Shown: positions 1,596 through 40,091, counted from the first letter of the stretch. The stretch is 64,000 bases of DNA from Candidatus Staskawiczbacteria bacterium (GCA_903831095.1 CAIKWD010000011.1:5706-69705), one strand, 5' to 3'. Numbers and translations: made by a program. The notes: generated by a model from the letters alone, not told the origin.

Positions 1596-1847
1596 TTAAA
1601 ATTTTCTTAATTGAATTTCGTTTATTACTCTTTGATATTTTATTTCATCAAACTTCAAAACACCAGTTACTACTTTTGGCTCAGCTGTTTCAACTAATGC
1701 AACATATTTATAAAAAATAAATCCACCATAAATCAATTCCAAAAAAACAAACAGCAATATAAGCGAAAATGCATGTAACCCAAAAAACCAGATAATTTCC
1801 TTACTCTTTATGGCTAAATTTTTAGAGTAATCTTTTGAAGATTTCAT
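1596..1847 (-). CDS. Small single-pass membrane protein in the pilus operon
   Basis: 83-aa ORF. Its ATG overlaps the pilO-like stop (ATGA). One hydrophobic helix (IIWFFGLHAFSLILLFVFLELIYGGFIF). No family recognised. Confidence 0.5.
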   Translation of the reverse strand: MKSSKDYSKNLAIKSKEIIWFFGLHAFSLILLFVFLELIYGGFIFYKYVALVETAEPKVVTGVLKFDEIKYQRVINEIQLRKF

Positions 1848-2395
1848 TTTTTTGTAAAAACTTTTAAATTAAAAACAGCATCAACTTTTCTTAAGGAATA
1901 ATCTTTGGGAGCATTTTTGTCCTGTGAATTTTGAATATTGATATTTTCAATTTCCAGCAAATAAGGACCAGCTTCAATTTTACCCACAAAATTCAAAACA
2001 TCTGAAAAACTTCCTTTTGAAGAAAATTGCAGAACAATGAAATTCTGGCTTAGTTGAGGGTTTCCAGATGCTGGAGGCAAGGAAATCTGCGAAGTGATTT
2101 TATGACTTAAAGCAGTATTTTCTAAAAATTCTATAAAATCAACAGGATTGCTGGGATCTACAAATAACTTGTCTATTGATGCAAAATTTGGCTTATAACT
2201 TTTGTAATTCTGCTGAAATTTATCCACCTCATTCATTTGCGCGTCTAAAGTCACTATGTTATTTTTTGCTGTTATAAGATCATTAGAATTTTTACTTATA
2301 TTACTAATCAAAGGCCAAATAAAAAACAAAACCAAAATCAGCGATACTGCTGAAAATATTGAAGAAATTGTGTATATTTTATTCTTATTGTTCAT
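1844..2395 (-). CDS. pilO: PilO-like pilus assembly protein
   Basis: N-terminal TM helix, then a coiled-coil-like segment and an alpha/beta domain. It sits directly after pilM-pilN. The track start at 2410 is TTG; the first ATG is at 2395 (MNNKNK...). Assignment rests mainly on position and topology. Confidence 0.55.
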   Translation of the reverse strand: MNNKNKIYTISSIFSAVSLILVLFFIWPLISNISKNSNDLITAKNNIVTLDAQMNEVDKFQQNYKSYKPNFASIDKLFVDPSNPVDFIEFLENTALSHKITSQISLPPASGNPQLSQNFIVLQFSSKGSFSDVLNFVGKIEAGPYLLEIENINIQNSQDKNAPKDYSLRKVDAVFNLKVFTKK

Positions 2396-2939
2396 TTTGA
2401 GCAATTTCAAATGTTAACGAAAAATTAACGTTTTTGGGACTCACCCAACTGTCTGAAGAAAAACTTGGATTCAATATTTTCTTGTTTTTTTCTATGTTGT
2501 CCTTAAATATAAGCAAATTATCCCTTGTATCGCTAACACCAGAAACATTTGCCTGAATGTTTCCATTGTCTTTTCTTTCTAAAGAAAAATTAACCAAATT
2601 CAAACCCTTAGGATTTTGTACACCAGTTATTATTTCTAACGCACTATCAAAATATATTTCCTTTTTATAAAAAGAATCAAGCTGTGCTAAAGTAGTGTTG
2701 TATTTTTTAATCAAATTGCTTGAATTTACAAATTCTGATTTATTATTTTCCTGTTCCATTTTAGATAAAATACTTTTTTGGTTGTCAGTCTCTGCCAAAA
2801 TATAAAACTTAATGGAAAATAAAATCAAAGTTAAACAAACCAAAGTAACTAAAATTATAATGCCCAAAACCATGACCAATCTTTCCTTTTTTATTAAAAA
2901 TAATTTTCGCCTTTCCTCCAAAGGCAGAAGGTTTATCAT
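2385..2939 (-). CDS. pilN: PilN-like fimbrial assembly protein
   Basis: The N-terminus MINLLPLEERRK followed by a TM helix is the typical PilN start. It lies immediately downstream of pilM. Confidence 0.7.
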   Translation of the reverse strand: MINLLPLEERRKLFLIKKERLVMVLGIIILVTLVCLTLILFSIKFYILAETDNQKSILSKMEQENNKSEFVNSSNLIKKYNTTLAQLDSFYKKEIYFDSALEIITGVQNPKGLNLVNFSLERKDNGNIQANVSGVSDTRDNLLIFKDNIEKNKKILNPSFSSDSWVSPKNVNFSLTFEIAQNEQ

Positions 2940-2944
2940 ATTTT

Positions 2945-4033
2945 TTATTTGCTATCTGGCTGTCTTAATGCTAATCCTATGGCAGTTGTAAAAGACGCCA
3001 AGTCTTTTTTAATTATGCAATTCTGTTTTTTTTGCGAAAAATTTACCAAAGGGTCTCCTACTTCAACAGGAATATCCAATTTTTTAGACAAAAATTCAAC
3101 CAATCCTTTCAATCCTGCTCCTCCACCACACAATAAAATCTTTTCTGTTTTACCATCTGGCAAAAAATATTCGTATGAAGAATATTCCCGGTAAAAATTT
3201 ATATATTTTTTAATTTGAACTGCTAAATCTTCCAAAATTGGAGTTAAAATTTGAAATACTTTTTCCGATTTTACATTATCTTTTTTACCGCTTAATCCAT
3301 ATTCAATTTTAAACTTGTCAGCCTCACGAAAATCTATTTTTAATGAATCAGCAATTGCTTGTGTCAGCAATTGTGAGGAAATAGGTATTGAACAAGTAAA
3401 ACGAATAGAATGCCCGGAAAAAACAATAAAATCTGTATTATTCTCCCCAAAATCAACTAAAATAAGCAAAGACGAGTTAGTTTCATTTTTAACCAATGCT
3501 CTGGCAATTGCCTCAGATTCTGCTTCTAAAATTATTGGCGTAAGGCCGGCTTTTTTAAAACAAGAAACATAAGAATCAACTATTTTTTTAGGCATGGCAA
3601 CAAGCAATACCTCAGGATGATTGAAATATTCCTTTATTGGCGAAATAACCTGAAAATCCAAGTAAGCTTCGTCAATTGGCATTGGAATGTAATTTTCCGC
3701 TTCAAGAGGAACAGCAAGTTTCATTTCCTCCTCTGTCATTTTTGGCATTTGTATTACTTGAAGAAAAGATTTTTCCTCAGGCAAAGATGCAACTATGTAT
3801 TTGGTCTTAATTTTTTTTCCCTTAACAGTTTCACATGCAGACCTTATAATTTTTGCTAAAGCCTCTTCATTCTTTATTACTCCATCTTCAATTATATCGG
3901 GAGTTATTTTTTGTTCATTAAAAGAAACCAAACTAAAACTTTTGCCCCTTTTCTTGAGTTTTACAATTTTAAGCGACAAATCATTTATATCCAATCCGAA
4001 GGCTTCATCTTCTAATGATAAAATTTTGAACAT
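2945..4033 (-). CDS. pilM: Type IV pilus assembly protein PilM (actin-like ATPase fold)
   Basis: 362 aa. Starts with GLDINDLSLKIVKL and has a later LLCGGGAGLKGL segment. Size and the pilM-N-O order match. Confidence 0.85.
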   Translation of the reverse strand: MFKILSLEDEAFGLDINDLSLKIVKLKKRGKSFSLVSFNEQKITPDIIEDGVIKNEEALAKIIRSACETVKGKKIKTKYIVASLPEEKSFLQVIQMPKMTEEEMKLAVPLEAENYIPMPIDEAYLDFQVISPIKEYFNHPEVLLVAMPKKIVDSYVSCFKKAGLTPIILEAESEAIARALVKNETNSSLLILVDFGENNTDFIVFSGHSIRFTCSIPISSQLLTQAIADSLKIDFREADKFKIEYGLSGKKDNVKSEKVFQILTPILEDLAVQIKKYINFYREYSSYEYFLPDGKTEKILLCGGGAGLKGLVEFLSKKLDIPVEVGDPLVNFSQKKQNCIIKKDLASFTTAIGLALRQPDSK

Positions 4034-4061: not shown

Positions 4062-4451
4062 TTATTGCTTTTCCAGAAGCTTGCGCTTTTTAGTAGCCAA
4101 AGAAAATAAATATGCAAAAAATACAAAAATTAAAATAAAAATTATAATCCACCAAAAGACATTTGTATTGAATATCTTTTTTGTAATTGACTTGTCTCCT
4201 TGAAAACCGCCGGCATTATTTTTCCCTGAAATATTCCCCAAAGGCTGATTATTAAAGCTGCCTAAGTTTTCATTGGAAATACTAGGGTTAGTATGCCAGT
4301 TTACATTCCCAGAAATATTTGGAACAACTCCCTCTGGTATTGGTTGCATTTTAACTTGGTTTGGAAAAACAGCTTTTTCTAATGCTAAAGTATTTCCAGC
4401 GCAAAAAAATGCAGAAACAACAAGAAATAAAATTATTTTTTTGAAATTCAT
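4062..4451 (-). CDS. Hypothetical exported protein with signal peptide and C-terminal TM anchor
   Basis: 129 aa. N-terminal MNFKKIILFLVVSAFFCAGNTLA, C-terminal WWIIIFILIFVFFAYLF followed by basic residues. Embedded in the pilus operon. Confidence 0.5.
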   Translation of the reverse strand: MNFKKIILFLVVSAFFCAGNTLALEKAVFPNQVKMQPIPEGVVPNISGNVNWHTNPSISNENLGSFNNQPLGNISGKNNAGGFQGDKSITKKIFNTNVFWWIIIFILIFVFFAYLFSLATKKRKLLEKQ

Positions 4452-4458
4452 ATTTAAA

Positions 4459-5847
4459 TTAATCGCTTGTCCAACTTAATATTTGATACCCCGAACTAGA
4501 CAATGGAAAACTTGGCGGAGGCCCATACAAAAGATTGCTGTCATAAGTGTCATAAGTGTTTCTATACCCAGATGTAGTGCCTCCAGAACCGTTTACCCAA
4601 GTCCAAGTCCATTGGCTAAATGTCATTATTGCTCCGTAAATAGAGATACTGTTCTTTATATTTCCAGTATAGTAAAAAAACTGTGCGCCCCCGTTTTGTG
4701 AAATCATAGCTGCATCAATTTCTATATCTGTTGGCGCGTGGTAAGTAACAACTATGTCTTTTTGAGCAATCAGCCCCAAAACATTTGTTCCATCTTTGGC
4801 TACATAAGTTATATTGTTTGGAACATATATTGTGGGAGCAGTTGAAGAATTATATGGAAGCAAAGAAGCAACTACAGTTACCCTGCCTTTTACTGTGCCT
4901 TCAACCCAGGTTTTATCTTCAACATAAATTATGCCGTTGGCTGGAATAGCATTAGTAAACTGCAAAGTCCTGTTGTTATAGTCAATATACTCGTTATGAG
5001 TGTTTCCAGCTGTATCCTGACCACTTGGATTAGATAAAAGGCTTGTTACTTTATAAACACTTACAGTGCCACTACTATTGAAAACCAGTGAATAACCTTG
5101 AGCGTTGGAAGGAGGTAAATAAATTCCCGCGCTTTGCGCGCTACTTTTCATGGTAGCTAAGTCCGAAGTTACTGAAGAAAAATCAACTGCAGGCACTGGA
5201 AACTGCCAAAAATTCTTAACATTTTGAGAGGCCGAACCCCAAACTCCATTTTCAAGCGCCGGACAAGGCGAACCTTGGTTTGAAGAACAAGTATATGTTG
5301 ATTTGGCAGATTGTATGGGTGCGTTACCTACTCCATCAAACCTAATTCCATTATTAGACTGCATTTGTCCGCTTACTGATTCATTGTTTCCAATCCAAAT
5401 AATATCGTTACTTAAAAATGCGTACTTTGCCAAAGAAGCAATTCCAAATCTTGCAGTTATTGTCCTAGTAACCCCAGGGTTTTCATTTGTCCAACCAGTT
5501 GACTTAATTGTCATAATTGTAGACCCTGTAGCTGGAGGCGTTATTATAAGGCTGAATTTTCCTATACTTTGCTGGGTGTCAGTATCCATATAATTATGGA
5601 CATATGGACCCGAAGCATTGGTGCCATCTTTGTAATCATTTGGAAAATGAGCCAAGTGCCACTGATAATAATTTACTCCCGCGTCAGCAATCTGCATCGC
5701 TTCTTCTCTTTGAATAGAAAGGCGCAACAATTTTATTTTCCCGGTAAAAATTGCAACAACTGGAAACATAACCATGGTAAAAATGGCTATGGCAATTATC
5801 AAATAAAGTAGAAGAGTTCCTTTTTGATTGTTTAATTTCGTAATCAT
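4459..5847 (-). CDS. PilX-N-like pilus-associated protein (large, putative minor pilin/tip factor)
   Basis: 462 aa. The N-terminus NQKGTLLLYLIIAIAIFTMV resembles a PilX-type hydrophobic segment but lacks Glu at +5. The rest is Ser/Thr/Gly/Asn-rich and beta-type. Tightly packed after two prepilin genes. Confidence 0.55.
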   Translation of the reverse strand: MITKLNNQKGTLLLYLIIAIAIFTMVMFPVVAIFTGKIKLLRLSIQREEAMQIADAGVNYYQWHLAHFPNDYKDGTNASGPYVHNYMDTDTQQSIGKFSLIITPPATGSTIMTIKSTGWTNENPGVTRTITARFGIASLAKYAFLSNDIIWIGNNESVSGQMQSNNGIRFDGVGNAPIQSAKSTYTCSSNQGSPCPALENGVWGSASQNVKNFWQFPVPAVDFSSVTSDLATMKSSAQSAGIYLPPSNAQGYSLVFNSSGTVSVYKVTSLLSNPSGQDTAGNTHNEYIDYNNRTLQFTNAIPANGIIYVEDKTWVEGTVKGRVTVVASLLPYNSSTAPTIYVPNNITYVAKDGTNVLGLIAQKDIVVTYHAPTDIEIDAAMISQNGGAQFFYYTGNIKNSISIYGAIMTFSQWTWTWVNGSGGTTSGYRNTYDTYDSNLLYGPPPSFPLSSSGYQILSWTSD

Positions 5848-5848
5848 A

Positions 5849-6478
5849 TTAATTTCCCAAGTTATCTTTTACAGACCTTATTGCCGAACCCGCAGAAATT
5901 GAAAACTTACTTGTGTCGTTCTGCTTTATATTGTTTAAAACCATCAAACTCATTTTAACAAATCTTACCTGATTAATATTAACTGGCTGGGCAAGAGCAC
6001 TGGTATTTCCATTGTAATTACCGTCATAATAATAAAACAGTGGACTGCCAGAATTTGATATTCCCGTAGCAACTACTTTTACTGATTCATTCAAAAGGTT
6101 GTAAGACAGCGGACTACCAGAAGGTAAAACAACTCCCTTGTACAAAATGTTTCCGTCTATATAATACCTGATTCTTGCAACTGCAGAATTGGAAACTTTA
6201 TAATTGGAAAAGAAAACTATCTGTGAATCTCCTGTTTGATTTAATGGATAAGATCCGTCAACTCCCGTAACTGAATTCCTAATTTCATTTGTGAAAGTTG
6301 AAAGCGCGGATCTCGCCTGGTCTATATTACTCATGGAAATTACTTCTTGATTGGAATTTATAAAAATATCGCTGAGCATTTTTGAAACTCCAAAAATTAG
6401 CATAACAAAAATTGCCAAAGCTATCATAACCTCTATTAAAGTAAAACCTTTTTGTTTTGCAAATTTATTTATTTCCAT
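5849..6478 (-). CDS. Type IV prepilin-like protein (N-terminal cleavage/methylation motif)
   Basis: MEINKFAKQKG/FTLIEVMIALAIFVMLIF is the canonical G/FTLIE prepilin motif. 209 aa. Confidence 0.85.
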   Translation of the reverse strand: MEINKFAKQKGFTLIEVMIALAIFVMLIFGVSKMLSDIFINSNQEVISMSNIDQARSALSTFTNEIRNSVTGVDGSYPLNQTGDSQIVFFSNYKVSNSAVARIRYYIDGNILYKGVVLPSGSPLSYNLLNESVKVVATGISNSGSPLFYYYDGNYNGNTSALAQPVNINQVRFVKMSLMVLNNIKQNDTSKFSISAGSAIRSVKDNLGN

Positions 6479-6479
6479 T

Positions 6480-9400
6480 TTAATGGCTTAATAAAATTTC
6501 CATCAAACCGTAACCTTGTACAGTAACAGGTCCAATAACTTTTGTTTGATAACCATTCATTGTAACTGTTATTTGGTAGTCGCGACTATTTTGCAATCCT
6601 GGAAACATAACTTGACCTGGAGCAAAACACCCTGAAACATAATTTATATTGGCGCTAGTTAAAACAGGAGTTTTGGATGCATTTGTTGTCGATAGGAAAA
6701 CTTTGTATCTTACATATCTTTTATTGTCTTGATTACTGATTGTAGTGCCGGGAACTGTATAAAAAGTCGAGCTTGTGCCATCTGGACCAAAATAATCCCA
6801 AGTTTTTTTGTCGTTGTTGGCGGCAATTTGAAACTTCACGCTGGCAGAAGGATCTTGCGAAGTTGGCTGCCAATTCAAAGTTGTATAAGCTGTCAGCCCG
6901 GTACCGGTATCATAAGTTGAAGATTCCAAAGAACCGTAAGAAACATAGGAATTACCATTTTTAGCAAGACGCAATCCAGTTGGAATTATATTGGTAGTTA
7001 TGTTCCCATCATCTTGGTAATACTTTGACTCATCGGAAAAATCTTCCTGCCCCGACCCACCTGTCCAGCTTTGCTGGCTCCATATGCTTCCACTAGTAAA
7101 CCCAGTGTCAACATATCCCCCGCTTATTACTATTGCTTCGAAAGTTGCTGAAACTACGTGGTCAGATGTTACATTATTAATTGTATAAGTCCCAGATGAA
7201 CCCACAGAACTACCGTCTACTTTTACGTCAGAAATATGATATCTATAATTAGGTGTAAAAATAAATGTTTGGCTGTCTCCGCTGTTCACTGCAACCAACC
7301 CTGAAGGAGTTATTGTTCCGTTTGCAGTTGCCGAAGTTGTAATTGTATAAGTGGTTATTTTATTTTCCTGAGAAGCAATAGTTAAATTATTTCCCGAGTC
7401 AGCAATATTATGATATTCAAATTTTATCCAGTCAGATGAGCGAACTGCATTAGAAACTCTAACCTCGTCAATTGGACCTTTGAAATAATGCCCATCTCCA
7501 GTTGTATCCAAACCAATATTTGTGCTATTTGAAGTTGTAATTGAGTCTACAGTTCCTTTGGTAACTGCTGTGGCGGAGTTTTCCAAACCATCAACATATA
7601 TTTTAGGTACAGAACCGTTCCACACTCCCACAACATAATGCCAGCCTGAGCTAAGTGTTGAAGAATCAATTCCATTATATCTATTACTACTTCGGGATAA
7701 TAAAAATCTTGCCTTATTAGAAGAACTTATTGCTAGCATATATCCGTAATCACTCCAGGTGTTTCCATAAATTACATCGCTGGTGGAATCCAGTGCCGGA
7801 TTAACCCACCCGGCAATTGTAAAATTACTAGACAAGGTGAAATTCCCCACATTGCTGCTGAAATTAACGTAGTCGCTGGTGCCGTTGAAAGTCAAAGCCT
7901 TGTCTATTTTTCCGGTTGTTGTTTTGGTATTAGTATTAACTTTTGCTGTACCATTATTTGTACTAATTGAATCGACAACTGTTTTAGTATTAGTGTTGTC
8001 CTCTAAATGCCAAACTCCTGAAAAATTTGAACCCCAAACCAATTGCGCATTTGTTGGGCTTCCAGTTGCAGTCCAATCTGTATTTGCTGAAGAATTGCCA
8101 TAATACATGTAAACAGTTGTTGCTAAAGAATGGCTAACTGTAGGAACTTTTACCCAAAAACTTGCTGTGACCGCGCTTCCACCTCCGCCAGACCAGCTTT
8201 CCCGTTCATATGGCAAAGTTGTATTTCCAGTTGAATCGGCAAACCTTATATCAAATCCAGAAGCTAAAGCCGAAGACATATTTGAATCTGCTGAAATTTT
8301 TACCAAAACTGGAAAATTAGAAAGGTCAGAACTAACATTTGCATTTGAAATTGTAATTTTTTTTCTGTACTGCCACCCGGAAAGCCAAGTATTATTTGGA
8401 GTAAAGCTGGCATATATGGCATGATCCTGAACGACATTTGTAAAAGTATAAGTTAAAACTGCTCCTACAGAAGCTCCATCAACTGAAACATCTTTTACAA
8501 CATACCCAGAATTTGCCGTAATTGTAAAAGTTTTATTTGATCCACTATTAACTAAATTAGATCCAGAAGGAGAAATAATTCCATTTGACCCGGCCAAGGC
8601 AGTTATTGAATAACTTGAAGGAGCAACTGAAGTTTGCAAGTCAACTTGTGCGCCCTGAATTGGATTTCCAGTTGAAGCATCTTTTACAATTGTCAGCAAG
8701 CTGTTGTCTGTTTTTGGTCCAAGTATTAAATTAAAGCTTTGATTTGTCCCAGGTAATATACTGGCTTGTTGAATTGGCGACGACCCATAAACCATGTATG
8801 GCCCAATTAAGCCAGGAGTATAACTATCCCATTCAATATCTCTCAAAGCAATGTTTCCAATTGAATCAGAACTATATGTATGATCAAACTTCAAAACACT
8901 GGGCGTGCCAATTATTTTAGACCCTCTTATTTCCATGCCTATTCCAAAAAGAGGCGCACAAGTCTGATTTAAGGTATTAAAAAACAAAGAACTTAATTTA
9001 TCAATAGAAAAACTAATGCGTGTTACCTGGCCGTTTAAAATTGTTGCGCTTGGCTTGGTTGGATTTGGATTTTCCAATGAAGTTGGAAAAGTTTGGTCTG
9101 TAGAATATCCTGATTTGGTTGCAACAACGCTGTAGCTGTTGGCGCTGTTTGGCAAGCCAACTTCAATCCAATTTCCACTGGCGTCTGCAGTCCTGTACAA
9201 GTTTATAGTAGGAGTGACGATGTTGTTTACAATATGTATTGATGCGCCTGGCACTGGCTGGCCTACTGCGTCAAAAACCTGCAAATAAAGCGCTCCCCCA
9301 TTTACCATACCTTCCAAACCTTTTGGTGAAGCTGATGTCAAAAAACTGCTTGTCAACCCAGTTTTGCTGTTTTTAATATAAAGTTTTATTTGCTTATAAT

Positions 9401-9788
9401 CGTTTGGTGCAGGATCTGTCCCAGCTAAAATTGTTCCGTCAGCTGGATCGTCCACATAACTGATTGCATAATAAACATTGTAAACAATTCCATTTACAAT
9501 CACATTGGTAGCATTAGGTAAATCGGGCAAGGAACCATTTGGATTTCCCTGTATTGTTCCAACTTTGGAATAAGGCAAATTTCTCACCACTTCCAAATAC
9601 TGGTCAGCAATGGAAGAAATTGTAGTTTTTTCCCTGTAAAAAACAATTCCATTAATAACCGCCAAAAAAAGTCCATATATACTCACACTGATAACGGCAA
9701 AAATTGCAACACAAACTATCACTTCAATAAGCGTCATTCCTTTTTGAGAACTGTTCAAATTATTTTTTCCCTTGTGCTTTTGTGCCAT
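6480..9788 (-). CDS. Giant modular type IV prepilin (1102 aa) with lectin-like modules
   Basis: N-terminus SSQKG/MTLIEVIVCVAIFAVISV (G-1, E+5). Two InlB-B-repeat-like units follow (YSITALAGSNGIISPSG...YASF; YTITTSATANGTITPSG...SATF). There is a DUF2341-like stretch (WQYRKKITISNANV..FPVLVKI..DIRFAD) and a LamG/ConA-like stretch (VWHLEDN..ALTFNGTSDYVNF..GWVNP..WHYVVGVWNG..IYVDG..IDEVRVSN). The ATG overlaps the pilC stop (TAATG). Confidence 0.85.
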   Translation of the reverse strand: MAQKHKGKNNLNSSQKGMTLIEVIVCVAIFAVISVSIYGLFLAVINGIVFYREKTTISSIADQYLEVVRNLPYSKVGTIQGNPNGSLPDLPNATNVIVNGIVYNVYYAISYVDDPADGTILAGTDPAPNDYKQIKLYIKNSKTGLTSSFLTSASPKGLEGMVNGGALYLQVFDAVGQPVPGASIHIVNNIVTPTINLYRTADASGNWIEVGLPNSANSYSVVATKSGYSTDQTFPTSLENPNPTKPSATILNGQVTRISFSIDKLSSLFFNTLNQTCAPLFGIGMEIRGSKIIGTPSVLKFDHTYSSDSIGNIALRDIEWDSYTPGLIGPYMVYGSSPIQQASILPGTNQSFNLILGPKTDNSLLTIVKDASTGNPIQGAQVDLQTSVAPSSYSITALAGSNGIISPSGSNLVNSGSNKTFTITANSGYVVKDVSVDGASVGAVLTYTFTNVVQDHAIYASFTPNNTWLSGWQYRKKITISNANVSSDLSNFPVLVKISADSNMSSALASGFDIRFADSTGNTTLPYERESWSGGGGSAVTASFWVKVPTVSHSLATTVYMYYGNSSANTDWTATGSPTNAQLVWGSNFSGVWHLEDNTNTKTVVDSISTNNGTAKVNTNTKTTTGKIDKALTFNGTSDYVNFSSNVGNFTLSSNFTIAGWVNPALDSTSDVIYGNTWSDYGYMLAISSSNKARFLLSRSSNRYNGIDSSTLSSGWHYVVGVWNGSVPKIYVDGLENSATAVTKGTVDSITTSNSTNIGLDTTGDGHYFKGPIDEVRVSNAVRSSDWIKFEYHNIADSGNNLTIASQENKITTYTITTSATANGTITPSGLVAVNSGDSQTFIFTPNYRYHISDVKVDGSSVGSSGTYTINNVTSDHVVSATFEAIVISGGYVDTGFTSGSIWSQQSWTGGSGQEDFSDESKYYQDDGNITTNIIPTGLRLAKNGNSYVSYGSLESSTYDTGTGLTAYTTLNWQPTSQDPSASVKFQIAANNDKKTWDYFGPDGTSSTFYTVPGTTISNQDNKRYVRYKVFLSTTNASKTPVLTSANINYVSGCFAPGQVMFPGLQNSRDYQITVTMNGYQTKVIGPVTVQGYGLMEILLSH

Positions 9789-11002
9789 TAAATATTTCCT
9801 AAAACCGAATATAACGGTCCTATTATGGAAACTGCAAAAACTCCAACAGCCGCGCCGATAATAACAATCATTGCAGGCTCAATAATTGCAGACAAATTTT
9901 CAGCTACGTTGGTAACTTCCTCCTCATAAAATTCTGCTAATTTTTTTAAAATTAAGGAAGTTTTTCCAGTTTCTTCTCCAATTTCCACCATTTCAATGGC
10001 TCCATAAGGAAAAATATCTTGATAAGGTTGCAAGCTGACAAACAACTTCTTACCTTTTTCTACATCTTTAGCAGCTCCAGAAAGAGCTTTTTTAAAATAA
10101 AAATTACTCACAATGCCAGAAGTTATTTGCAAAGACCTTATTAAGGGCACTCCTGAGGACAAAAGAGAACTCAAAGATCTTATCAACGCAGCTGAATTAC
10201 TTTTTTTTACCAAGGAAGAAACAAGAGGTATTTTTAAGGTGGCAGTATCTATTATAAACTTTCCCGTTTTTGTCTTTATTAAAAATAAAAATAAAATGCA
10301 CAAAACAATAAAAATTAAAATAAAAAAATACCAATACTGCATAACAAAATCTCCCGACCCAAGTATTATGCGGGTTGTAATTGGTAAATTGGCATGCAAA
10401 CTTGTAAAGAAAGTATTTATTTTTGGCAAAACAAATACTATAAGGAAAATACCCACAAATAACATTACAGTTATCAAAATAATTGGGTAAATAAGTGCTT
10501 TTTGTATTTTGGAATTCATTTCCTTTTCCTTCTCCAATTGTGAAGACAATACTTTAAGCACGTCTTCCAAAGTTCCAGATTCTTCTCCTGCTTGTATCAT
10601 ACTTTGAAATAAATCTGAAAAAATATCCGGATATTTTTTAAAAGAATCAGATAAATTTTTACCCTTACTTACATCTTGGCCGATACTAAGCAAGGCTGAC
10701 TTCATTTTTTTGCTTTTTGCCTGGGCAGACAAAATTGAAAACCCTTTTACCAAAGACAAACCTGTAGAGACCATTATCCACAAGTTTCTTGTCATTAACA
10801 TTTTTTCTGTTATGGAAACTTTTCCAGACAAAAAAGGTATATTAAATTTACCCTTTGTTTTGTTAACTTCAGAATCTGCTTTAACCAAAATCAAGCCCTC
10901 GCCTTTCAAGCTTTGAGCTAATTCCCTTATATCTTTTGCGTCTGCGTTTCCCATCTTTACCTGACCATCAAGAGACTTGGCAGTATATATGAAATTTGGC
11001 AT
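9788..11002 (-). CDS. pilC: Type IV pilus platform protein PilC (GspF family)
   Basis: 404 aa with the duplicated GspF-type cytoplasmic domain plus TM pattern (e.g. IQAGEESGTLEDVL and MVEIGEETGKTSLIL). Adjacent to pilB. Confidence 0.9.
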   Translation of the reverse strand: MPNFIYTAKSLDGQVKMGNADAKDIRELAQSLKGEGLILVKADSEVNKTKGKFNIPFLSGKVSITEKMLMTRNLWIMVSTGLSLVKGFSILSAQAKSKKMKSALLSIGQDVSKGKNLSDSFKKYPDIFSDLFQSMIQAGEESGTLEDVLKVLSSQLEKEKEMNSKIQKALIYPIILITVMLFVGIFLIVFVLPKINTFFTSLHANLPITTRIILGSGDFVMQYWYFFILIFIVLCILFLFLIKTKTGKFIIDTATLKIPLVSSLVKKSNSAALIRSLSSLLSSGVPLIRSLQITSGIVSNFYFKKALSGAAKDVEKGKKLFVSLQPYQDIFPYGAIEMVEIGEETGKTSLILKKLAEFYEEEVTNVAENLSAIIEPAMIVIIGAAVGVFAVSIIGPLYSVLGNI

Positions 11003-11027: not shown

Positions 11028-12779
11028 CTAATCCATTATCACGCGCAAAACTTCTTCTATTGAAGTTAATCCCCTTGCTGCCTTAACAAAACCGTCCTCA
11101 GCCATTGTCCGCATGCCATCTTGCACGGCCTGCTTTGTAATTTCAGCTGTTGAGGCTTTTTTATTTATCAAATCCTTTATTGCATTATTAATTGACAAAA
11201 CTTCAAAAATTCCTATTCTGCCTTTGTATCCTGAAACAGAATCTTTTGAAGGTTTAGGTCTGTAAAGCTCCAAATCTTTTATAGTGTCTTTTTCCTTTAA
11301 TATTTTTTCCTTCTTTAAAATACCAATCATTCTTTCCATGTCACAATATTTTTCCAAATTCTCAATGTCTGCAGGCTTTAATTTGTACTTTTCCTTTTCT
11401 CCGTAAAATTTTCTGACCAGCCTTTGCCCAATAATTATATTTATAGTTGAAGACAACAAAAATGGCTCTGTCCCCATGTCTATTAACCTTGGAATTGCTC
11501 CTCCAGCTTCTGTTGTGTGCAAAGTAGACAAAACCAAGTGTCCTGTCAAAGCTGCGTTAACAGCCAAGTCAGCAGTTTCCTTATCCCTGATTTCTCCAAC
11601 CATAATGACATTTGGGTCTTGCCTAACTAAAGACCGCAGTCCAGCAGCAAAAGTTAGCCCAATTTTTTCATTTACCTGAGTTTGGTTTATTCTTGGCATT
11701 CTGTACTCAACAGGATCTTCAATAGTGGAAATATTAACATTGGTTGTGTTTACAATTTCCATCATGGCGTAAAGCGTAGTTGTTTTTCCCGAACCAGTAG
11801 GCCCCGTAATAAGCACCATGCCTGTTGTTTTTAACAAACTCTTTTTTACCTTTTCCAAAGCTTCTCCAGAAAATCCTGAAGCTTCTAAAGAATAAGTTCC
11901 TGTGTCTTCAGCCAAAAGCCTCATAACAATTTTTTCTCCGTTTAAAACTGGTAAAACCGAAACTCTAATAGAATATTTGAAATCTTCAGTTTCAATTTTA
12001 AACCTTCCGTCTTGAGGAAGTCTGTGTTCGTCAAGCTTTAAATTGGACAAAACTTTTATTCTAGCAACAATTCCAGAAGCAGTGCTTGCTGGCAAAGACA
12101 TAACATCGTGCAATATGCCGTCTATTCTGTACCTTACAATAACTTCTTTTTCCAAAGGTTCAATATGCACATCTGAAGTTCTCTGCAAAATAGCGTGTTT
12201 TAACAAGGAATCTACAACCCTGATAATGGAAACTTCCTCGGCTGCTTTTTGCATTTCTTCCTTTCCCCCATGAGATTCTTCCTCTTTTATGTGCTTTATT
12301 GCCCCGGTTCCACCTTTCATGATGTCTCCAAATTCAGTTTCCAATGTTTCCTGATATTGTGACAAGGCATTTTTAATGCTTTCAGGAGTGGTCAGCCGGG
12401 CTAAAATTTTAAAAGATGGCGCAATTTTTTTTATGAACTCAATAGTTCTTAAATCTTCTGGGTCTAACATAGCCACTTCAAGATTATTGTCTTTCTTATT
12501 GAAAGAAACAATATTATGAGCCCTGGCAATTGATTCTGGAATAATCTTCAAAACATCTGAGGGAATTGTTTCCTCTTCTAGATTTATAAATGGTATGCCT
12601 AAAATGTAAGCTTCAATTTTTATAAGTTCTTTCTCAGAAATCAATTCCTCAGAAACCAAAACCTCTCCAATCCATTTCTTGGATTTTTCGCTTTTTGCCT
12701 TGGCCTCTTCAAGTTTCTTAGCATCTATAAGCCCGGCATCCAAAATAAATTGTTCAAGTTTTTTTGGTTCAACCTTCAT
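11028..12779 (-). CDS. pilB: Type IV pilus assembly ATPase PilB (GspE family)
   Basis: Walker A GPTGSGKTTT, Walker B/Asp box VMVGEIRD, His box TGHLVLSTLHT, and an N-terminal GspE-N type domain. Confidence 0.9.
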   Translation of the reverse strand: MKVEPKKLEQFILDAGLIDAKKLEEAKAKSEKSKKWIGEVLVSEELISEKELIKIEAYILGIPFINLEEETIPSDVLKIIPESIARAHNIVSFNKKDNNLEVAMLDPEDLRTIEFIKKIAPSFKILARLTTPESIKNALSQYQETLETEFGDIMKGGTGAIKHIKEEESHGGKEEMQKAAEEVSIIRVVDSLLKHAILQRTSDVHIEPLEKEVIVRYRIDGILHDVMSLPASTASGIVARIKVLSNLKLDEHRLPQDGRFKIETEDFKYSIRVSVLPVLNGEKIVMRLLAEDTGTYSLEASGFSGEALEKVKKSLLKTTGMVLITGPTGSGKTTTLYAMMEIVNTTNVNISTIEDPVEYRMPRINQTQVNEKIGLTFAAGLRSLVRQDPNVIMVGEIRDKETADLAVNAALTGHLVLSTLHTTEAGGAIPRLIDMGTEPFLLSSTINIIIGQRLVRKFYGEKEKYKLKPADIENLEKYCDMERMIGILKKEKILKEKDTIKDLELYRPKPSKDSVSGYKGRIGIFEVLSINNAIKDLINKKASTAEITKQAVQDGMRTMAEDGFVKAARGLTSIEEVLRVIMD

Positions 12780-12792
12780 AAAATTTTGAAAA

Positions 12793-13179
12793 TTACTTCA
12801 AACCAAGCTTTTCCTTAACTTTATCTACAATTTCACTTATTCTCAAATCAGCCTTAACCAAATAGTGAAACCCCATTTCTTCAATACTCCGGGTATAAGC
12901 TACATCCTTCATATTAGTTAAAAAAATAATTGGCACATTCTTGTCAGACAATCTTATTTTCTTTGCCATTTCCAAACCATCTACTTTGGGCATTAAAATG
13001 TCCGACAAAATTAAATCGGGCTTTTCCTTTTCTGCAATTACAACGCCCTCTTCACCATCACCGGCTTTTACAACAGAAAAGCCCTCACTTTTAAACTTTA
13101 GTTCCAAAATTGAACTAAAGTCCTCATCATCCTCTACAATTAATATTTTTTTACCTATATTATCTATTTTCTCTGCCAT
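12793..13179 (-). CDS. Single-domain response regulator (CheY-like receiver)
   Basis: KKILIVEDDEDF...PDLILSDILMPKVDGLE...PIIFLTN receiver motifs, 128 aa, no output domain. Paralogous to 19479-19874. Confidence 0.85.
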   Translation of the reverse strand: MAEKIDNIGKKILIVEDDEDFSSILELKFKSEGFSVVKAGDGEEGVVIAEKEKPDLILSDILMPKVDGLEMAKKIRLSDKNVPIIFLTNMKDVAYTRSIEEMGFHYLVKADLRISEIVDKVKEKLGLK

Positions 13180-13219
13180 TTTTTTATCTTTATTTTCTTA
13201 ATTATATAATTTAAAAAGG

Positions 13220-14878
13220 CTAAGCGCCAGGCTTGTTTTCAACTGGTTTCTCCACAGCTGCTTTCACTTCCTGTTTTACCGGCAACTCAATATTAAATGT
13301 AGAACCTTTGCCCTCGCCTTCGGACTCTGCCCAAATTTTGCCATTGTGAGCCTTGATAATTTGATTGGACAAATATAAGCCAATTCCCCTGCCAGAAACA
13401 AAGGTTTTCTTGGCCTCATCGGTTCTCTCAAAAGTGCTGTCAAACAATTTTGCCAATCTTTCCTTGGCAATTCCCATGCCAGTATCCTGAATTTCAATTT
13501 TTACTTTTTCACCAATAACTTTCATTCTCATTGTGACTCCGCCTTCCTTTGTATATTTTACCGAGTTGTCAAAAATATTAACCAAAGCTGCCTTAAGTTT
13601 TGATTCGTCAGCTGTAATTAAGAAATCTCCAGCTGGCTTTTCCAAAGCAAGCTTAATTCCCTTCTTTTCTGCTTCAAGCTTTATGTCGCTCACAATTTCT
13701 TCCAATATTGGAGGCAAATTTATTCCATCTTTAAGCGAAATAACCTGTTTGCCCAATTGAAACTGAGTAATATCCAAAAAGTCGTTTACCATTTTTATCA
13801 AGCTGGTCGTGGAAACCTCAAACCTTTTTATAACTTCCTCAATTTTCTTTGGCACTTTGCCAAATGTCCCGCTGAGCAACAAATCTGCATAACCTCTCAT
13901 AGATGTGAGAGGTGTTCGCAAGTGATGCTGAATTGTCATTAAAAACTGATTCTTAACCTCAGCCAACTGCTTTAATTCATAATTTGCCTGCCTTTCAATC
14001 ACATAAGCTTTTTCCAATTCTTTCTCAATCTTCTCAATCTTCTCCCTTTGCTTAACTTCTTTTATTACGCTTCTAATAAGCAAAATACCAACGACTACTG
14101 CAGCTATTAGAATACAAATGTTCAATGCTAAATCGCGCGGATTTTCCGAAACAAATATTTTTATAAACAAAGTTATCCAAAGAGCAAAATTAAATAATTC
14201 AGTTGCGATAACTTTGATATTAAATAAGTGATGCTTAAAAACAGCGTAACTTATAAAAACTATGTAAAAAATTACAAAACAATTACCTATTGCATAAGTA
14301 TTAATATCAAAATCCAGAAGAAAATTTGTCGAACCTCCTGCAAAACCAATCAATGCTGCATAATATACAAACTGTATTTGCTTTTGCATAGCGCCTTCAT
14401 ATTTTTTTGAATCGGCCTTAAGTAAAATAACAGAATAAACAGCATAAAATGCAAAATAAAGTAAAAATAAAAAATACAAAGAGCCAGTTTGAACCGGCCA
14501 ATAACCAAAATCTGCTCTGTTTTTAACTCCTAATATGAAAAGATTACTAAAAGAAAGAAGTAAAAATAAAAAAGCTAAAATAAAACCCGCTACTAACGAT
14601 TTTTTGTTTTTTCTCTCAAGTAAATTAACACAAAAATAAAAGAAAAATATAGGAATTAATATAGTCCCAATATATAATATTCTCTGCCAAAAAAGAGCAC
14701 TTTCTTTATCACCAACAATAATTGTCCCATATAAACCTATTTGCCATATAAGAATAGACAAACAAGTAAAGAACCAAGCAATATTACTTTTACCTTTAAT
14801 ATTATTTAGAAGAATAACACAACACATTATTGCTGTAAAAAGTGCTGTTATAATACATGAAATAGCAAAAAGGTTCAT
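13220..14878 (-). CDS. Sensor histidine kinase with multi-TM (7TM-type) N-terminal domain
   Basis: About 280 aa of repeated TM helices. H-box follows (FLMTIQHHLRTPLTSMRGYADLL), then N/G boxes (IFDNSVKYT, DTGMGI, GRGIGL). Confidence 0.85.
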   Translation of the reverse strand: MNLFAISCIITALFTAIMCCVILLNNIKGKSNIAWFFTCLSILIWQIGLYGTIIVGDKESALFWQRILYIGTILIPIFFFYFCVNLLERKNKKSLVAGFILAFLFLLLSFSNLFILGVKNRADFGYWPVQTGSLYFLFLLYFAFYAVYSVILLKADSKKYEGAMQKQIQFVYYAALIGFAGGSTNFLLDFDINTYAIGNCFVIFYIVFISYAVFKHHLFNIKVIATELFNFALWITLFIKIFVSENPRDLALNICILIAAVVVGILLIRSVIKEVKQREKIEKIEKELEKAYVIERQANYELKQLAEVKNQFLMTIQHHLRTPLTSMRGYADLLLSGTFGKVPKKIEEVIKRFEVSTTSLIKMVNDFLDITQFQLGKQVISLKDGINLPPILEEIVSDIKLEAEKKGIKLALEKPAGDFLITADESKLKAALVNIFDNSVKYTKEGGVTMRMKVIGEKVKIEIQDTGMGIAKERLAKLFDSTFERTDEAKKTFVSGRGIGLYLSNQIIKAHNGKIWAESEGEGKGSTFNIELPVKQEVKAAVEKPVENKPGA

Positions 14879-19874: not shown

Positions 19875-19985
19875 ATATTTCAAGCATTTTACATTATTGC
19901 CTGTACTCTAATAATAGCGCTAAACCAAACCAAGAGCAAGAAAGATATCAACATATCAGCATTAAAAAGCTAGGCAAGACTTTAC

Positions 19986-35637: not shown

Positions 35638-35684
35638 TATTTATTTTTATTTCTGTTAATATTTGCTTATTATAACTTATTTTT

Positions 35685-40028: not shown

Positions 40029-40091
40029 GTAATAATAACAAATCTGTAAATTACTTATTATAACTTAATATTTTCAAAAAATAAAATAACA

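What the first reader, a model, noticed from the sequence alone, without database searches (positions are those of the whole stretch)
6480..9788. An 1102-aa type IV prepilin carrying lectin-like and repeat modules, a candidate adhesive 'modular pilin'
Seen directly: a textbook prepilin leader and hydrophobic helix (QKG/MTLIEV...) is fused to about 1050 aa. This region contains two InlB-B-repeat-like units, a DUF2341-like segment and a LamG/concanavalin-A-like segment, plus further beta-rich regions. Ordinary pilins are 130-200 aa. Pilins with grafted functional modules are known from a few monoderm systems (established knowledge), but this one stacks several modules. It is translationally coupled to pilC (TAATG) and followed by a normal 209-aa prepilin and a 462-aa PilX-like protein, suggesting a tip or minor-pilin complex that displays a carbohydrate-binding head. 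For an episymbiotic CPR-type cell this is a plausible host-attachment device (inference).
Basis: partly seen in the sequence, partly recalled or inferred. Interest (0 to 1): 0.6.

Follow-up and report, generated by a model that had tools for sequence, protein, structure and literature searches.

The report
Lectin-carrying tip pilin of a Patescibacterium
This gene encodes a giant type IV pilus subunit in which a sugar-binding-type module has been spliced into a pilin scaffold shared by many ultra-small (CPR/Patescibacteria) bacteria, making it a plausible but untested attachment device and one more variant of the already known "modular pilins".

Summary
A 1102-aa ORF lies at 6480-9788 on the minus strand. 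It has a curated-threshold prepilin motif (QKG|MTLIE), a CarboxypepD_reg domain, two InlB-B-like units, DUF2341 and LamG_3. Its ATG overlaps the pilC stop (TAATG).

The protein is not a pilin with modules stacked on its end. It is a conserved ~606-aa Patescibacteria minor pilin (755 clusters at 50% identity). That scaffold is a small pilin head, a stalk of beta-sandwiches, and a CBM/discoidin-like jelly roll nested in the split last sandwich. A ~500-aa cassette (InlB-B / DUF2341-LamG / InlB-B) is inserted in the same loop, in one Staskawiczbacteria subclade only.

The gene trio big pilin -> 209-aa pilin -> 462-aa PilX_N-like, Glu5-less protein recurs in 73-76 of 79 related loci. I read it as an I-J-K-type priming/tip complex.

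Relatives carry DUF2341-LamG at other sites: an inter-domain linker, the C-terminus, or inside the 209-aa-type pilin. Others carry different inserts, such as ice-binding-like domains. About 28% of family clusters are expanded.

Best reading: a tip-displayed adhesin with two putative glycan-binding modules. Binding and host contact are inferred, not shown. Modular and lectin pilins are published, including in CPR, so this is a new variant of a known kind.

The parts
6480..9788 (-). Whole gene: 1102-aa modular minor pilin (stop codon included)
   Evidence: ORF list and translation. Full-length orthologues share 54-91% identity.
9675..9788 (-). Class III (prepilin) signal peptide. It has a 17-aa leader ending in Gly, then MTLIE with Glu5 and a hydrophobic tract (residues 1-38).
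   Evidence: Pfam N_methyl scores 29 bits against a cutoff of 21.2. TIGR02532 scores 27.3 against 16.3.
9309..9737 (-). Pilin module: a long alpha1 helix (residues 20-69) plus a small 4-strand head (residues 70-160)
   Evidence: AF2 model: helix H20-69 and strands 94-98, 101-112, 131-140 and 146-153, pLDDT about 80-90. A family profile matches the alpha1 helices of solved pilins only.
9003..9296 (-). Stalk domain D1, a CarboxypepD_reg / transthyretin-like beta-sandwich (residues 165-262)
   Evidence: Pfam PF13620, E 5e-10. pLDDT is 86-94. Foldseek matches tandem Ig/CnaB-like domains of Gram-positive pilins, down to E 2.8e-10.
8709..9002 (-). Stalk domain D2, an all-beta domain with no Pfam match. 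It contains the family-invariant Cys277 (residues 263-360).
   Evidence: AF2 strands with pLDDT 85-94. Invariant columns are listed.
8631..8708 (-). D3a: the first two strands of a split CarboxypepD_reg-like sandwich (residues 361-386)
   Evidence: In-silico splice test: residues 362-386 joined to 1053-1102 match PF13620 over profile positions 5-70 of 82 in the window protein (4-77 in two of the homologues). E is 6e-7 for the window protein and 5e-9 to 2e-7 for three short homologues.
8328..8555 (-). InlB-B-like unit A (Flg_new_2), the outgoing arm of the inserted cassette (residues 412-487)
   Evidence: PF18998, E 1.4e-6, 28.6 bits against a cutoff of 23.6. It is 52% identical to unit B.
8034..8327 (-). 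DUF2341 domain (residues 488-585; Pfam match 511-570)
   Evidence: PF10102, E 7e-11 on the whole protein and 2e-12 on the isolated segment.
7419..7886 (-). LamG_3 / concanavalin-A-like domain (residues 635-790)
   Evidence: PF13385, E 1e-20, covering 150 of 151 profile positions. The nearest solved sequence is the pappalysin-2 LamG-like region, E 0.0014. The AF2 model is poor here, pLDDT 35-70.
7125..7355 (-). InlB-B-like unit B (Flg_new_2), the returning arm of the cassette (residues 812-888)
   Evidence: PF18998, E 1.8e-6, 28.3 bits.
6633..7097 (-). Family-wide conserved jelly-roll domain of CBM6/CBM32/discoidin type. It has no Pfam match and is nested in the same D3 loop (residues 898-1052).
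   Evidence: The AF2 domain model has pLDDT 89. All top 50 Foldseek PDB hits are beta-sandwich/jelly-roll domains, mostly galactose-binding-like (CBM6/32, F5/8-C2, PNGase C-terminal domain, APC10). E values are 1e-3 to 2e-2 and the best TM (target-normalised) is 0.55. Viral hits reach E 9e-6; those that are named are mostly phage tail, fibre or tip proteins. The domain is present in 86 of 102 complete family representatives.
6483..6632 (-). D3b: the remaining strands of the split CarboxypepD_reg-like sandwich. It starts at the invariant Cys1054 (residues 1053-1102).
   Evidence: Splice test. A weak direct PF13620 hit covers profile positions 38-70.
5849..6478 (-). 209-aa canonical prepilin (KG|FTLIE). 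It is the second gene of the conserved trio and occupies the J/PilW position.
   Evidence: N_methyl, E 7e-9. NCBIfam gives only sub-threshold ComGE, ComGF and GspJ N-terminal hits. The gene is present next to the big pilin in 76 of 79 loci.
4459..5847 (-). 462-aa PilX_N-type protein with a non-canonical signal (QKG|TLLLY, no Glu5). It is the putative K-type cap of the tip complex.
   Evidence: 19 of 35 family members match PF14341 PilX_N, best E 1e-7. N-termini are listed. It is present in 73 of 79 loci at 53-79% identity.
9788..11002 (-). pilC (platform protein). Its stop codon overlaps the pilin start codon (TAATG).
   Evidence: T2SSF, E 3e-57. GspF and PilC models match.
11028..12779 (-). 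pilB (extension ATPase with an MshEN N-terminal domain)
   Evidence: T2SSE, E 9e-120, plus MshEN. TIGR02538 scores 518.7 bits.
1844..4033 (-). pilM-pilN-pilO alignment-complex genes, which close the operon
   Evidence: PilM_2, E 1e-54, and a weak PilO match. Gene gaps range from -26 to 28 nt.

Best explanation
The gene encodes a minor pilin of a type IV pilus and most likely sits in the priming/tip complex.

Shown by sequence:
- It has a class III signal peptide with Gly-1 and Glu+5.
- It lies in a tightly packed operon: HK-RR-pilB-pilC-[1102 aa]-[209-aa prepilin]-[462-aa PilX_N-type, no Glu5]-129 aa-pilM-pilN-pilO.

Shown by comparison:
- The protein is a Patescibacteria-specific ~606-aa scaffold. 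It consists of a small pilin head, two beta-sandwich stalk domains, and a third CarboxypepD_reg-like sandwich that is split.
- The beta2-beta3 loop of that third sandwich carries a conserved CBM/discoidin-like jelly roll.
- In one Staskawiczbacteria subclade, a ~500-aa cassette has been inserted into the same loop. The cassette is a DUF2341-LamG_3 unit flanked by two 52%-identical InlB-B-like domains.

Inferred mechanism:
1. Prepilin peptidase removes the 17-residue leader.
2. The alpha1 helix docks with the 209-aa pilin and the Glu5-less 462-aa cap. Together they form an I-J-K-like complex on PilC that primes polymerisation and therefore ends up at the pilus tip.
3. [quoted passage not shown]
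4. The sandwich stalk and the paired InlB-B arms hold the LamG head and the jelly roll away from the filament.
5. These two beta-sandwich modules bind surface glycans of a partner cell or substratum.
6. The conserved jelly roll supplies a common function: either a shared ligand or contact with the other tip subunits. The lineage-specific insert supplies specificity.
For: - Prepilin motif above curated cutoffs, and the residue pattern itself.
- AF2 gives a 50-residue alpha1 helix plus a 4-strand head at pLDDT 80-90, and a confident scaffold at 85-95.
- T4P machinery genes are adjacent with -26 to 40 nt spacing, including the TAATG overlap.
- The trio big pilin -> 209-aa pilin -> 462-aa protein is conserved in 76 and 73 of 79 species-level Patescibacteria loci, while the position of pilB/pilC varies.
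- The 462-aa family matches PilX_N (19/35) and mostly lacks Glu5. Lack of Glu5 is the published hallmark of the capping K subunit (PMC9934059).
- The insertion architecture is shown by alignment and by the splice test, which restores a near-complete CarboxypepD_reg match.
- LamG_3 E 1e-20 and DUF2341 E 7e-11.
- The insert is as conserved among 19 orthologues (61-75% identity) as the scaffold (60-79%). It is therefore under selection, not decaying.
- The jelly roll resembles CBM6/CBM32/discoidin domains and phage tail-fibre domains.
- DUF2341-LamG is a recurrent type IV pilus tip module. It occurs at three other positions in relatives, in catalogued pilins, and at the N-terminus of some PilY1 adhesins (PMC8179133 Datasets S1/S2). 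DUF2341 proteins also occur in archaeal T4P loci (PMC4858521).
- Precedents: the S. sanguinis PilC lectin pilin binds glycans (PMC9934059), and lectin-like minor pilins are implicated in host binding of Saccharibacteria (PMC11623550).
Against: - No binding, processing or localisation data exist.
- The LamG region is poorly modelled (pLDDT 35-70), and pTM is only 0.53. Domain arrangement and any binding site are therefore unknown.
- The fold match of the jelly roll is weak in the PDB (no hit with E <= 1e-3).
- The I/PilV assignment of the pilin head rests on gene order only. GspI and GspJ hits are sub-threshold and limited to the helix, and a family profile finds no solved minor pilin beyond alpha1.
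- No major pilin, PilD or PilT was found in the 64-kb window: motif scans over all ORFs found only the two operon prepilins and one PilB-type ATPase, and PilD was checked only in a subset of ORFs.
- LamG_3 and CarboxypepD_reg folds are not restricted to carbohydrate binding.
- The lifestyle of Staskawiczbacteria is not established.
Confidence: 0.6

Rival explanations
1. The pilus is used for DNA or polymer capture (competence or nutrient scavenging) rather than for attachment to a host cell. On this reading the beta-sandwich modules bind environmental polysaccharide, extracellular DNA or debris.
For: - Only an extension ATPase is present in the window, and no PilT was found.
- CPR type IV pili have been discussed in relation to DNA uptake and motility as well as attachment (PMC11623550 and PMC11665869).
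- The jelly roll is conserved family-wide at 58% identity. This suits a common ligand better than a host-specific one.
Against: - The PilM/N/O alignment complex and a PilX_N-type subunit point to a T4aP-like machine rather than a Com pilus.
- No DNA-binding domain was detected.
- Lineage-specific module swapping fits variable targets.
Confidence: 0.2
2. The extra domains are structural only. The large subunit would be a priming plug and a spacer that carries the tip through the thick envelope or S-layer, with no ligand-binding role.
For: - The scaffold, including the jelly roll, is highly conserved and always co-encoded with the two partner pilins. This fits an assembly role.
- HIJK-type minor pilins are needed for filament initiation (PMC9934059).
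- Sixteen of 102 representatives are shorter than 500 aa, and most of these lack the jelly roll altogether.
Against: - A purely structural role does not explain the repeated, independent acquisition of lectin-type, ice-binding-like and other surface-interaction modules at many sites.
- It also does not explain the purifying selection on the insert.
Confidence: 0.1
3. The DUF2341-LamG head is an enzyme (a glycan hydrolase or lyase of the concanavalin-A-like superfamily). It would be delivered on the pilus tip to breach a target cell wall.
For: - The concanavalin-A-like superfamily includes glucanases, as the Pfam description of PF13385 states.
- The full-length Foldseek search also matches trypanosome trans-sialidases/sialidases and a GH43 arabinanase; which part of those targets aligns was not inspected.
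- Peptidase-bearing pilins exist in the census (PMC8179133).
Against: - The match is to the non-catalytic LamG_3 family over its full length.
- By inspection, residues 635-790 contain no GH16-type ExDxxE motif (sequence).
- No glycoside hydrolase or lyase family was hit.
Confidence: 0.06
4. The protein is not a filament subunit. It would use the prepilin signal only for export and membrane anchoring, as the sugar-binding proteins of the archaeal bindosome do, and act as a cell-surface binding protein.
For: - Class III signal peptides are used by non-filament surface proteins in archaea (my own knowledge).
- PilB gives a weak hit to the bindosome ATPase model (E 1.6e-9, far below its cutoff).
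Against: - The trio with a PilX_N-type, Glu5-less partner is conserved, and the gene is translationally coupled inside a pilB-pilC-pilMNO operon.
- Glu5 is retained.
- The bindosome ATPase hit is generic.
Confidence: 0.04

Closest known systems
Streptococcus sanguinis PilC, a modular minor pilin with a concanavalin-A-like lectin module (Shahin et al. 2023, PMC9934059)
   Same: Both combine a class III signal peptide, a short pilin moiety, an Ig-like spacer and a ConA-like beta-sandwich. Both are proposed to lie at the tip together with an I-like partner and a second modular pilin. Both come from cells without an outer membrane.
   Different: - There is no detectable sequence homology: phmmer against all PDB chains, where the PilC crystal structures of that paper should be deposited (not verified), found only pappalysin-2.
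- Here the lectin-type unit is DUF2341 plus LamG_3, inserted inside a split domain rather than grafted at the C-terminus.
- This protein is about twice the size and carries a second, conserved jelly roll.
- Glycan binding is proven for PilC and untested here.
Census class 'IPR012902-PF13620' and 'IPR012902-(IPR013378)-IPR018765-PF13385' modular pilins (Raynaud et al. 2021, PMC8179133, Dataset S1)
   Same: The same building blocks are already catalogued. Pilin plus CarboxypepD_reg has 66 proteins, with CPR examples figured. Pilin plus DUF2341 plus LamG_3 has 3 proteins. Pilin plus InlB-B plus DUF2341 plus LamG_3 has 1 protein.
   Different: - The combined architecture (pilin - CarboxypepD_reg - ... 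- DUF2341 - LamG_3) is not in that list.
- The census treats modules as linear grafts.
- It does not describe the conserved 606-aa scaffold, the nested insertion, the conserved gene trio or the movement of the cassette between sites.
Saccharibacteria (TM7x) PilX1 and PilX2, lectin-like minor pilins (Grossman et al. preprint, PMC11623550)
   Same: Both are CPR type IV pili whose largest minor pilins carry beta-jelly-roll or propeller domains resembling lectins. Both are proposed as tip adhesins for glycans of the host cell wall.
   Different: - PilX1 and PilX2 have C-terminal add-ons and are reported to lack a predicted PilD signal.
- The window protein has a canonical prepilin motif and an internal cassette.
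PilY1/PilC and MshQ, non-pilin tip adhesins of diderm T4aP and MSHA pili
   Same: They share the functional logic of a carrier plus variable effector modules at the tip, next to V-W-X / I-J-K minor pilins. Some PilY1 proteins carry DUF2341-LamG_3 at their N-terminus (PMC8179133 Dataset S2). MshQ follows the IJK homologues in the operon (PMC12918778).
   Different: - No PilY1 C-terminal beta-propeller was detected.
- The window protein is itself a pilin with an alpha1 helix, so the effector is fused to a core minor pilin rather than docked by beta-strand complementation.
GspK / PilX (K subunit) and CofB / TcpB (T4b minor pilins with extra domains)
   Same: These are minor pilins enlarged by extra structural domains. 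In GspK the extra domain is inserted within the pilin fold. All are restricted to the filament tip.
   Different: - In this locus the K-like subunit (no Glu5, PilX_N) is the neighbouring 462-aa protein.
- The window protein keeps Glu5.
- Its insertions lie in a downstream sandwich domain, not in the pilin sheet.

Membership tests
Type IV pilin (class III signal peptide protein) | N-terminal prepilin cleavage/methylation motif that passes curated models | tested here: met
   PF07963 scores 29.0 bits against a cutoff of 21.2. TIGR02532 scores 27.3 against 16.3.
Type IV pilin (class III signal peptide protein) | Gly at -1, Glu at +5, about 20 hydrophobic residues, and an extended alpha1 helix followed by a beta-sheet head | tested here: met
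   The sequence is QKG|MTLIEV.... AF2 predicts helix 20-69 plus a 4-strand sheet.
Type IV pilin (class III signal peptide protein) | Encoded with type IV filament machinery | tested here: met
   pilB, pilC, pilM, pilN and pilO are in the same operon.
Type IV pilin (class III signal peptide protein) | Processing by prepilin peptidase and incorporation into filaments | not testable with these tools
   Experimental. No PilD gene was found among the window ORFs scanned against Pfam; not all ORFs were scanned.
Modular pilin (as defined by Raynaud/Pelicic 2021) | An N-terminal pilin module plus at least one domain that is not specific to T4P biology | tested here: met
   CarboxypepD_reg, Flg_new_2 (twice), DUF2341 and LamG_3 are present. 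The definition is quoted.
Modular pilin (as defined by Raynaud/Pelicic 2021) | [quoted passage not shown] | tested here: not met
   The cassette is an insertion into a split CarboxypepD_reg-like domain, not a terminal graft. The protein works like a modular pilin but has a different topology.
S. sanguinis PilC lectin-pilin family | Sequence homology to PilC | tested here: not met
   phmmer against all PDB chains at E <= 1 found only pappalysin-2 and a chance hit.
S. sanguinis PilC lectin-pilin family | Demonstrated glycan binding by the ConA-like module | not testable with these tools
   This needs glycan-array or ITC measurements.
LamG_3 (PF13385) / DUF2341 (PF10102) | Match above the Pfam gathering score | tested here: met
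   LamG_3 scores 74.9 bits against 27.6. DUF2341 scores 42.8 bits against 23.4.
GspI / PilV (I-type core minor pilin) | Match to GspI or PilV models, or fold similarity of the head | tested here: inconclusive
   TIGR01707 GspI scores 22.4 bits against a cutoff of 44.35, on the helix only. A family profile against the PDB matches alpha1 only. The assignment rests on gene order (first of three, ahead of a PilX_N protein).
PilY1 / PilC tip adhesin | C-terminal PilY1-type beta-propeller | tested here: not met
   The Pfam scans reported no propeller or PilY1-family hit, and the AF2 model shows beta-sandwich domains only.
Galactose-binding-domain-like CBM / discoidin fold (for residues 898-1052) | Significant structural similarity to CBM6/32 or F5/8-C domains | tested here: inconclusive
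PilX (PF14341) for the neighbouring 462-aa protein | PilX_N match and absence of Glu5 | tested here: inconclusive
   19 of 35 orthologues match PilX_N (best E 1e-7), but the window copy does not match at E <= 1. Glu5 is absent in the window copy and in most orthologues.

The most novel reading that the evidence does not exclude
The conserved three-gene set (big pilin, 209-aa pilin, PilX_N-type cap) may be the universal tip complex of Paceibacteria/Parcubacteria-type pili. It may act as a hyper-modular display platform. Surface-recognition cassettes (DUF2341-LamG, ice-binding-like beta-helices, InlB-B repeats and unknown domains) are inserted independently at many permissive loops of two of its subunits, the big pilin and the 209-aa-type pilin. 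This would resemble module exchange in phage receptor-binding proteins. On this reading the inserts set the host or substrate range of these ultra-small bacteria, and the window protein is a dual-lectin version.
Probability: 0.3. Interest if true: 0.7.

Novelty: new variant of a known kind. Interest (0 to 1): 0.45.

Why it matters
How CPR/Patescibacteria cells find and hold on to partners is largely unknown outside a few cultivated Saccharibacteria. This locus provides three things:
- a concrete, widely conserved candidate tip complex for the much larger Parcubacteria side of the radiation;
- a map of where evolution tolerates inserted modules;
- defined recombinant targets (the LamG cassette and the conserved jelly roll) for glycan-binding tests that do not require cultivation.

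It also extends the 'modular pilin' idea from terminal grafts to nested insertions in a downstream domain. The gain is incremental rather than conceptual.

Tried and rejected
- Foldseek with the full-length model mostly returned tandem Ig/CnaB pilins and lectin-domain enzymes at very low TM. This helps only for the stalk.
- A profile of the pilin module against all PDB sequences matched only the alpha1 helices of major pilins, so the I/J/H type could not be settled.
- A profile of the 462-aa family against the PDB found nothing.
- The NCBIfam scan of the cassette found nothing.
- The promoter and terminator scan of the operon was at chance level for promoters and gave no clear operon boundary.
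- The window contains no second prepilin that could be a major pilin, no PilD and no PilT.
- I considered that the cassette moved recently between sites within Staskawiczbacteria. I rejected this because cassettes at different sites are only 32-41% identical to the window's. That is no closer than non-pilin copies, which are 41-43% identical.
- I considered the insert to be a decaying or chimeric assembly artefact. I rejected this because 19 orthologues from independent assemblies keep it at 61-75% identity.
- A complex prediction with the 209-aa and 462-aa proteins is not possible with the single-chain tool.

Full report

Yes. The ORF 6480..9788 is on the minus strand and encodes 1102 aa. The N-terminus reads MAQKHKGKNNLNSSQKG|MTLIEVIVCVAIFAVISVSIYGLF. 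It has a 17-residue hydrophilic leader ending in Gly, Glu at +5 and a hydrophobic tract. Both curated prepilin models are passed: PF07963 at 29.0 bits against 21.2, and TIGR02532 at 27.3 against 16.3.

Pfam also reports Laminin_G_3 (635-788, E 1e-20), DUF2341 (511-570, E 7e-11) and CarboxypepD_reg (170-246, E 5e-10). The two InlB-B-like units pass Flg_new_2 when scanned as isolated segments (28.6 and 28.3 bits against 23.6). They are 52% identical to each other (E 8e-19).

The start codon shares a base with the pilC stop codon (TAATG). The next two genes each follow after 1 nt. Full-length orthologues at 54-91% identity rule out a chance ORF.

**2. Anatomy**

Aligning the protein with its relatives changes the picture. 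Most relatives are ~606-620 aa Patescibacteria proteins that match residues 1-386 and 893-1102 of the query. The window protein is that scaffold plus a ~500-aa insertion.

The AF2 model (mean pLDDT 78, scaffold 85-95) gives the following layout:
- an alpha1 helix at residues 20-69;
- a small four-strand pilin head ending near residue 160;
- all-beta domains for the rest of the protein.

Foldseek matches the stalk to the tandem Ig/CnaB-like domains of Gram-positive pilins and the B. anthracis TIE protein (E down to 2.8e-10).

The last stalk domain is split. Residues 362-386 spliced in silico to 1053-1102 give a near-complete CarboxypepD_reg match (profile positions 5-70 of 82 in the window protein, up to 4-77 in homologues). 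E is 6e-7 for the query and 5e-9 to 2e-7 for three short homologues.

Two things sit in that domain's beta2-beta3 loop:
- A family-wide conserved ~155-aa domain (898-1052) with no Pfam match. Modelled alone, it has pLDDT 89. Its top 50 PDB matches are all beta-sandwich/jelly-roll domains, mostly galactose-binding-like (CBM6, CBM32, F5/8-C2/discoidin, PNGase C-terminal domain, APC10). The scores are weak: E 1e-3 to 2e-2 and TM up to 0.55. Its viral matches reach E 9e-6; those that are named are mostly phage tail-fibre, tip or neck-appendage proteins.
- In the window protein only, upstream of that domain, the cassette InlB-B / DUF2341 / LamG_3 / InlB-B.

Two cysteines, C277 and C1054, are invariant across 106 family members. 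They may staple the base of the loop. This is inference, because no coordinates were available.

**3. Distribution and context**

- A profile search of 1.84 billion cluster representatives finds 755 family clusters at E <= 1e-30.
- A scan of one genome per species finds 160 relatives. All 79 retained loci are labelled as Patescibacteria lineages or as unclassified 'bacterium' MAGs (lineage).
- In those loci, the order big pilin -> 209-aa prepilin -> 462-aa protein is kept in 76 and 73 of 79 cases. The exceptions lie at contig ends. By contrast, pilB/pilC lie upstream on the same strand or downstream on the opposite strand.
- The 462-aa family has a conserved Gly followed by a hydrophobic stretch that usually lacks Glu5. 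Nineteen of 35 members match PilX_N.
- The 209-aa protein is a canonical prepilin.

Gene order resembles pilV-pilW-pilX, gspI-J-K and comGE-GF-GG (Table 1 of PMC12918778). The K subunit caps the complex and lacks Glu5 (PMC9934059). I therefore infer an I-J-K-type priming/tip complex in which the big pilin occupies the I/PilV position. The head's own type could not be confirmed.

**4. The cassette is a mobile tip module**

The internal-cassette form occurs only in a subclade of Candidatus Staskawiczbacteria (P0001-P0019; loci L001-L004). Other Staskawiczbacteria have the short form, or a form with DUF2341-LamG appended at the C-terminus (P0020-P0023; L031, L037, L042).

Other variants:
- P0064 carries DUF2341-LamG, without InlB-B arms, in the D2-D3 linker.
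- P0228 is a homologue of the neighbouring 209-aa pilin (34% identity, E 3e-30). DUF2341-LamG is inserted before its last strand. In its operon, the big pilin is 1263 aa with a different extension and an unsplit third sandwich.
- Doudnabacteria homologues carry an ice-binding-like beta-helix at two different loops (P0095, P0101).

The DUF2341-LamG cores at these different sites are only 32-41% identical to the window's core. That is no closer than copies in proteins not recognised as pilins, at 41-43%. The acquisitions were therefore independent.

Among 102 N-terminally complete cluster representatives:
- 57 have the basic length;
- 16 are shorter than 500 aa, and most of these lack the jelly roll;
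- 29 (28%) are expanded, up to 1443 aa. Gaps lie inside the pilin module, the stalk, the jelly roll or at the C-terminus;
- only 3 carry DUF2341-LamG.

Within the window's clade, the insert is as conserved as the scaffold (61-75% against 60-79% identity). One orthologue, P0019, has a diverged LamG at 31% identity.

**5. How it most likely works**

Shown:
- the prepilin motif;
- the operon;
- the scaffold-plus-insert architecture;
- the conserved trio.

Inferred:
- cleavage of the leader;
- docking of alpha1 with the two partners on PilC to prime polymerisation, which places the complex at the tip;
- projection of the LamG head on paired InlB-B arms from a three-sandwich stalk;
- glycan binding by the LamG module and/or the jelly roll, with the conserved jelly roll giving a common function and the inserts giving specificity.

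Precedents:
- S. sanguinis PilC, a lectin pilin;
- the lectin-like PilX1 and PilX2 of Saccharibacteria;
- DUF2341-LamG at the N-terminus of some PilY1 adhesins;
- DUF2341 proteins in archaeal T4P loci.

Rival readings are scored separately. They are a polymer- or DNA-capture pilus, a purely structural role, an enzymatic head, and a non-filament surface protein.

**6. Comparison with what is known, and novelty**

Modular pilins are an established class. A census lists 1,219 proteins in 264 architectures. Pilin-LamG_3 (229 proteins) and pilin-CarboxypepD_reg (66 proteins) rank first and third, CPR examples are figured, and small numbers of pilin-DUF2341-LamG_3 are listed. The exact combination found here is not in that list. 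A search for papers linking CPR, pilins and concanavalin-A-like domains found none.

What this analysis adds:
- the definition of the conserved scaffold;
- the split-domain nested insertion;
- the conserved three-gene tip set;
- evidence that cassettes were inserted repeatedly and independently at different sites in two of the three subunits.

This makes it a new variant of a known kind. It is moderately interesting and is not a new principle.

**7. Limits**

- No experiment supports processing, location or binding.
- The LamG region is poorly modelled.
- Complexes could not be modelled.
- No major pilin, PilD or PilT was found within the window; the PilD check covered only a subset of ORFs.
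- My recollection that MshQ itself carries LamG/DUF2341 domains was not verified here. I use it only as a lead.

Noticed in passing
window 27043-43211 (minus strand): Three consecutive giant ORFs of 2864, 1447 and 1039 aa. The first has fibronectin-III and glycine-rich (Gly_rich_2) domains. The second has a weak SWM_repeat match. The third has no Pfam match. They may be a second set of large surface proteins in the same genome.
   Followed up: partly
window 12793-14878 (minus strand) and 19479-19883: A histidine kinase and a stand-alone receiver-domain protein lie directly upstream of pilB, with gaps of 13-40 nt. This suggests that the pilus operon is co-transcribed with its own two-component system. 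Homologues flank the locus in 7-10 of 79 related loci. The N-terminal sequence of a second ORF at 19479-19883 resembles the stand-alone receiver (by eye; not scanned).
   Followed up: partly
window 11028-12779 (pilB): PilB has an MshEN N-terminal domain and a sub-threshold match to the MshE-type c-di-GMP-binding motif (26.8 bits against a cutoff of 38).
   Followed up: no
L046:5379-6995, L053:7977-9425, L054:7860-9320, L067:3422-4873, L071:7846-9135: Homologues of the 209-aa pilin are enlarged to 429-538 aa in several lineages. Inserts include an InlB-B-like domain (L071), EPTP-type repeats (L046) and domains with no Pfam match. The second tip pilin is therefore also a module carrier.
   Followed up: partly
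P0095 (821 aa) and P0101 (789 aa), Doudnabacteria homologues; locus L076: An ice-binding-like (PF11999) beta-helix is inserted into the same pilin scaffold at two different loops (E 4e-36 and 3e-62).
   Followed up: partly
window residues C277 and C1054 of the 1102-aa protein (nt 8956-8958 and 6625-6627): Two cysteines are invariant in all 106 aligned family members. One is in stalk domain D2 and the other is at the restart of the split domain D3. They may form a disulfide that clamps the insertion loop.
   Followed up: no
P0019 (1109 aa orthologue): This orthologue keeps the DUF2341 domain (74% identity) and the InlB-B arms, but its LamG region is only 31% identical to the window's. This suggests that the LamG head diverged or was replaced within the cassette.
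   Followed up: no
window 4062-4451 (minus strand): A 129-aa protein lies between the PilX_N-type gene and pilM. By eye its sequence has a hydrophobic N-terminal stretch resembling a Sec signal and a hydrophobic C-terminal segment (no predictor was run). Weak homologues occupy the same position in about 10 related loci, and an ORF of identical length occurs in L080.
   Followed up: partly
family representatives P0250, P0286, P0362-P0385 (425-465 aa): A minimal form of the scaffold lacks the jelly-roll domain altogether. The profile match ends near position 400. The jelly roll is therefore itself an ancient insertion rather than part of the core.
   Followed up: partly
window, all 64 kb: A motif scan of all ORFs found no second prepilin that could be a major pilin and only one PilB-type ATPase, so no PilT. 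No prepilin peptidase turned up among the ORFs scanned against Pfam, which did not cover every ORF. Those parts of the system appear to be encoded elsewhere.
   Followed up: partly
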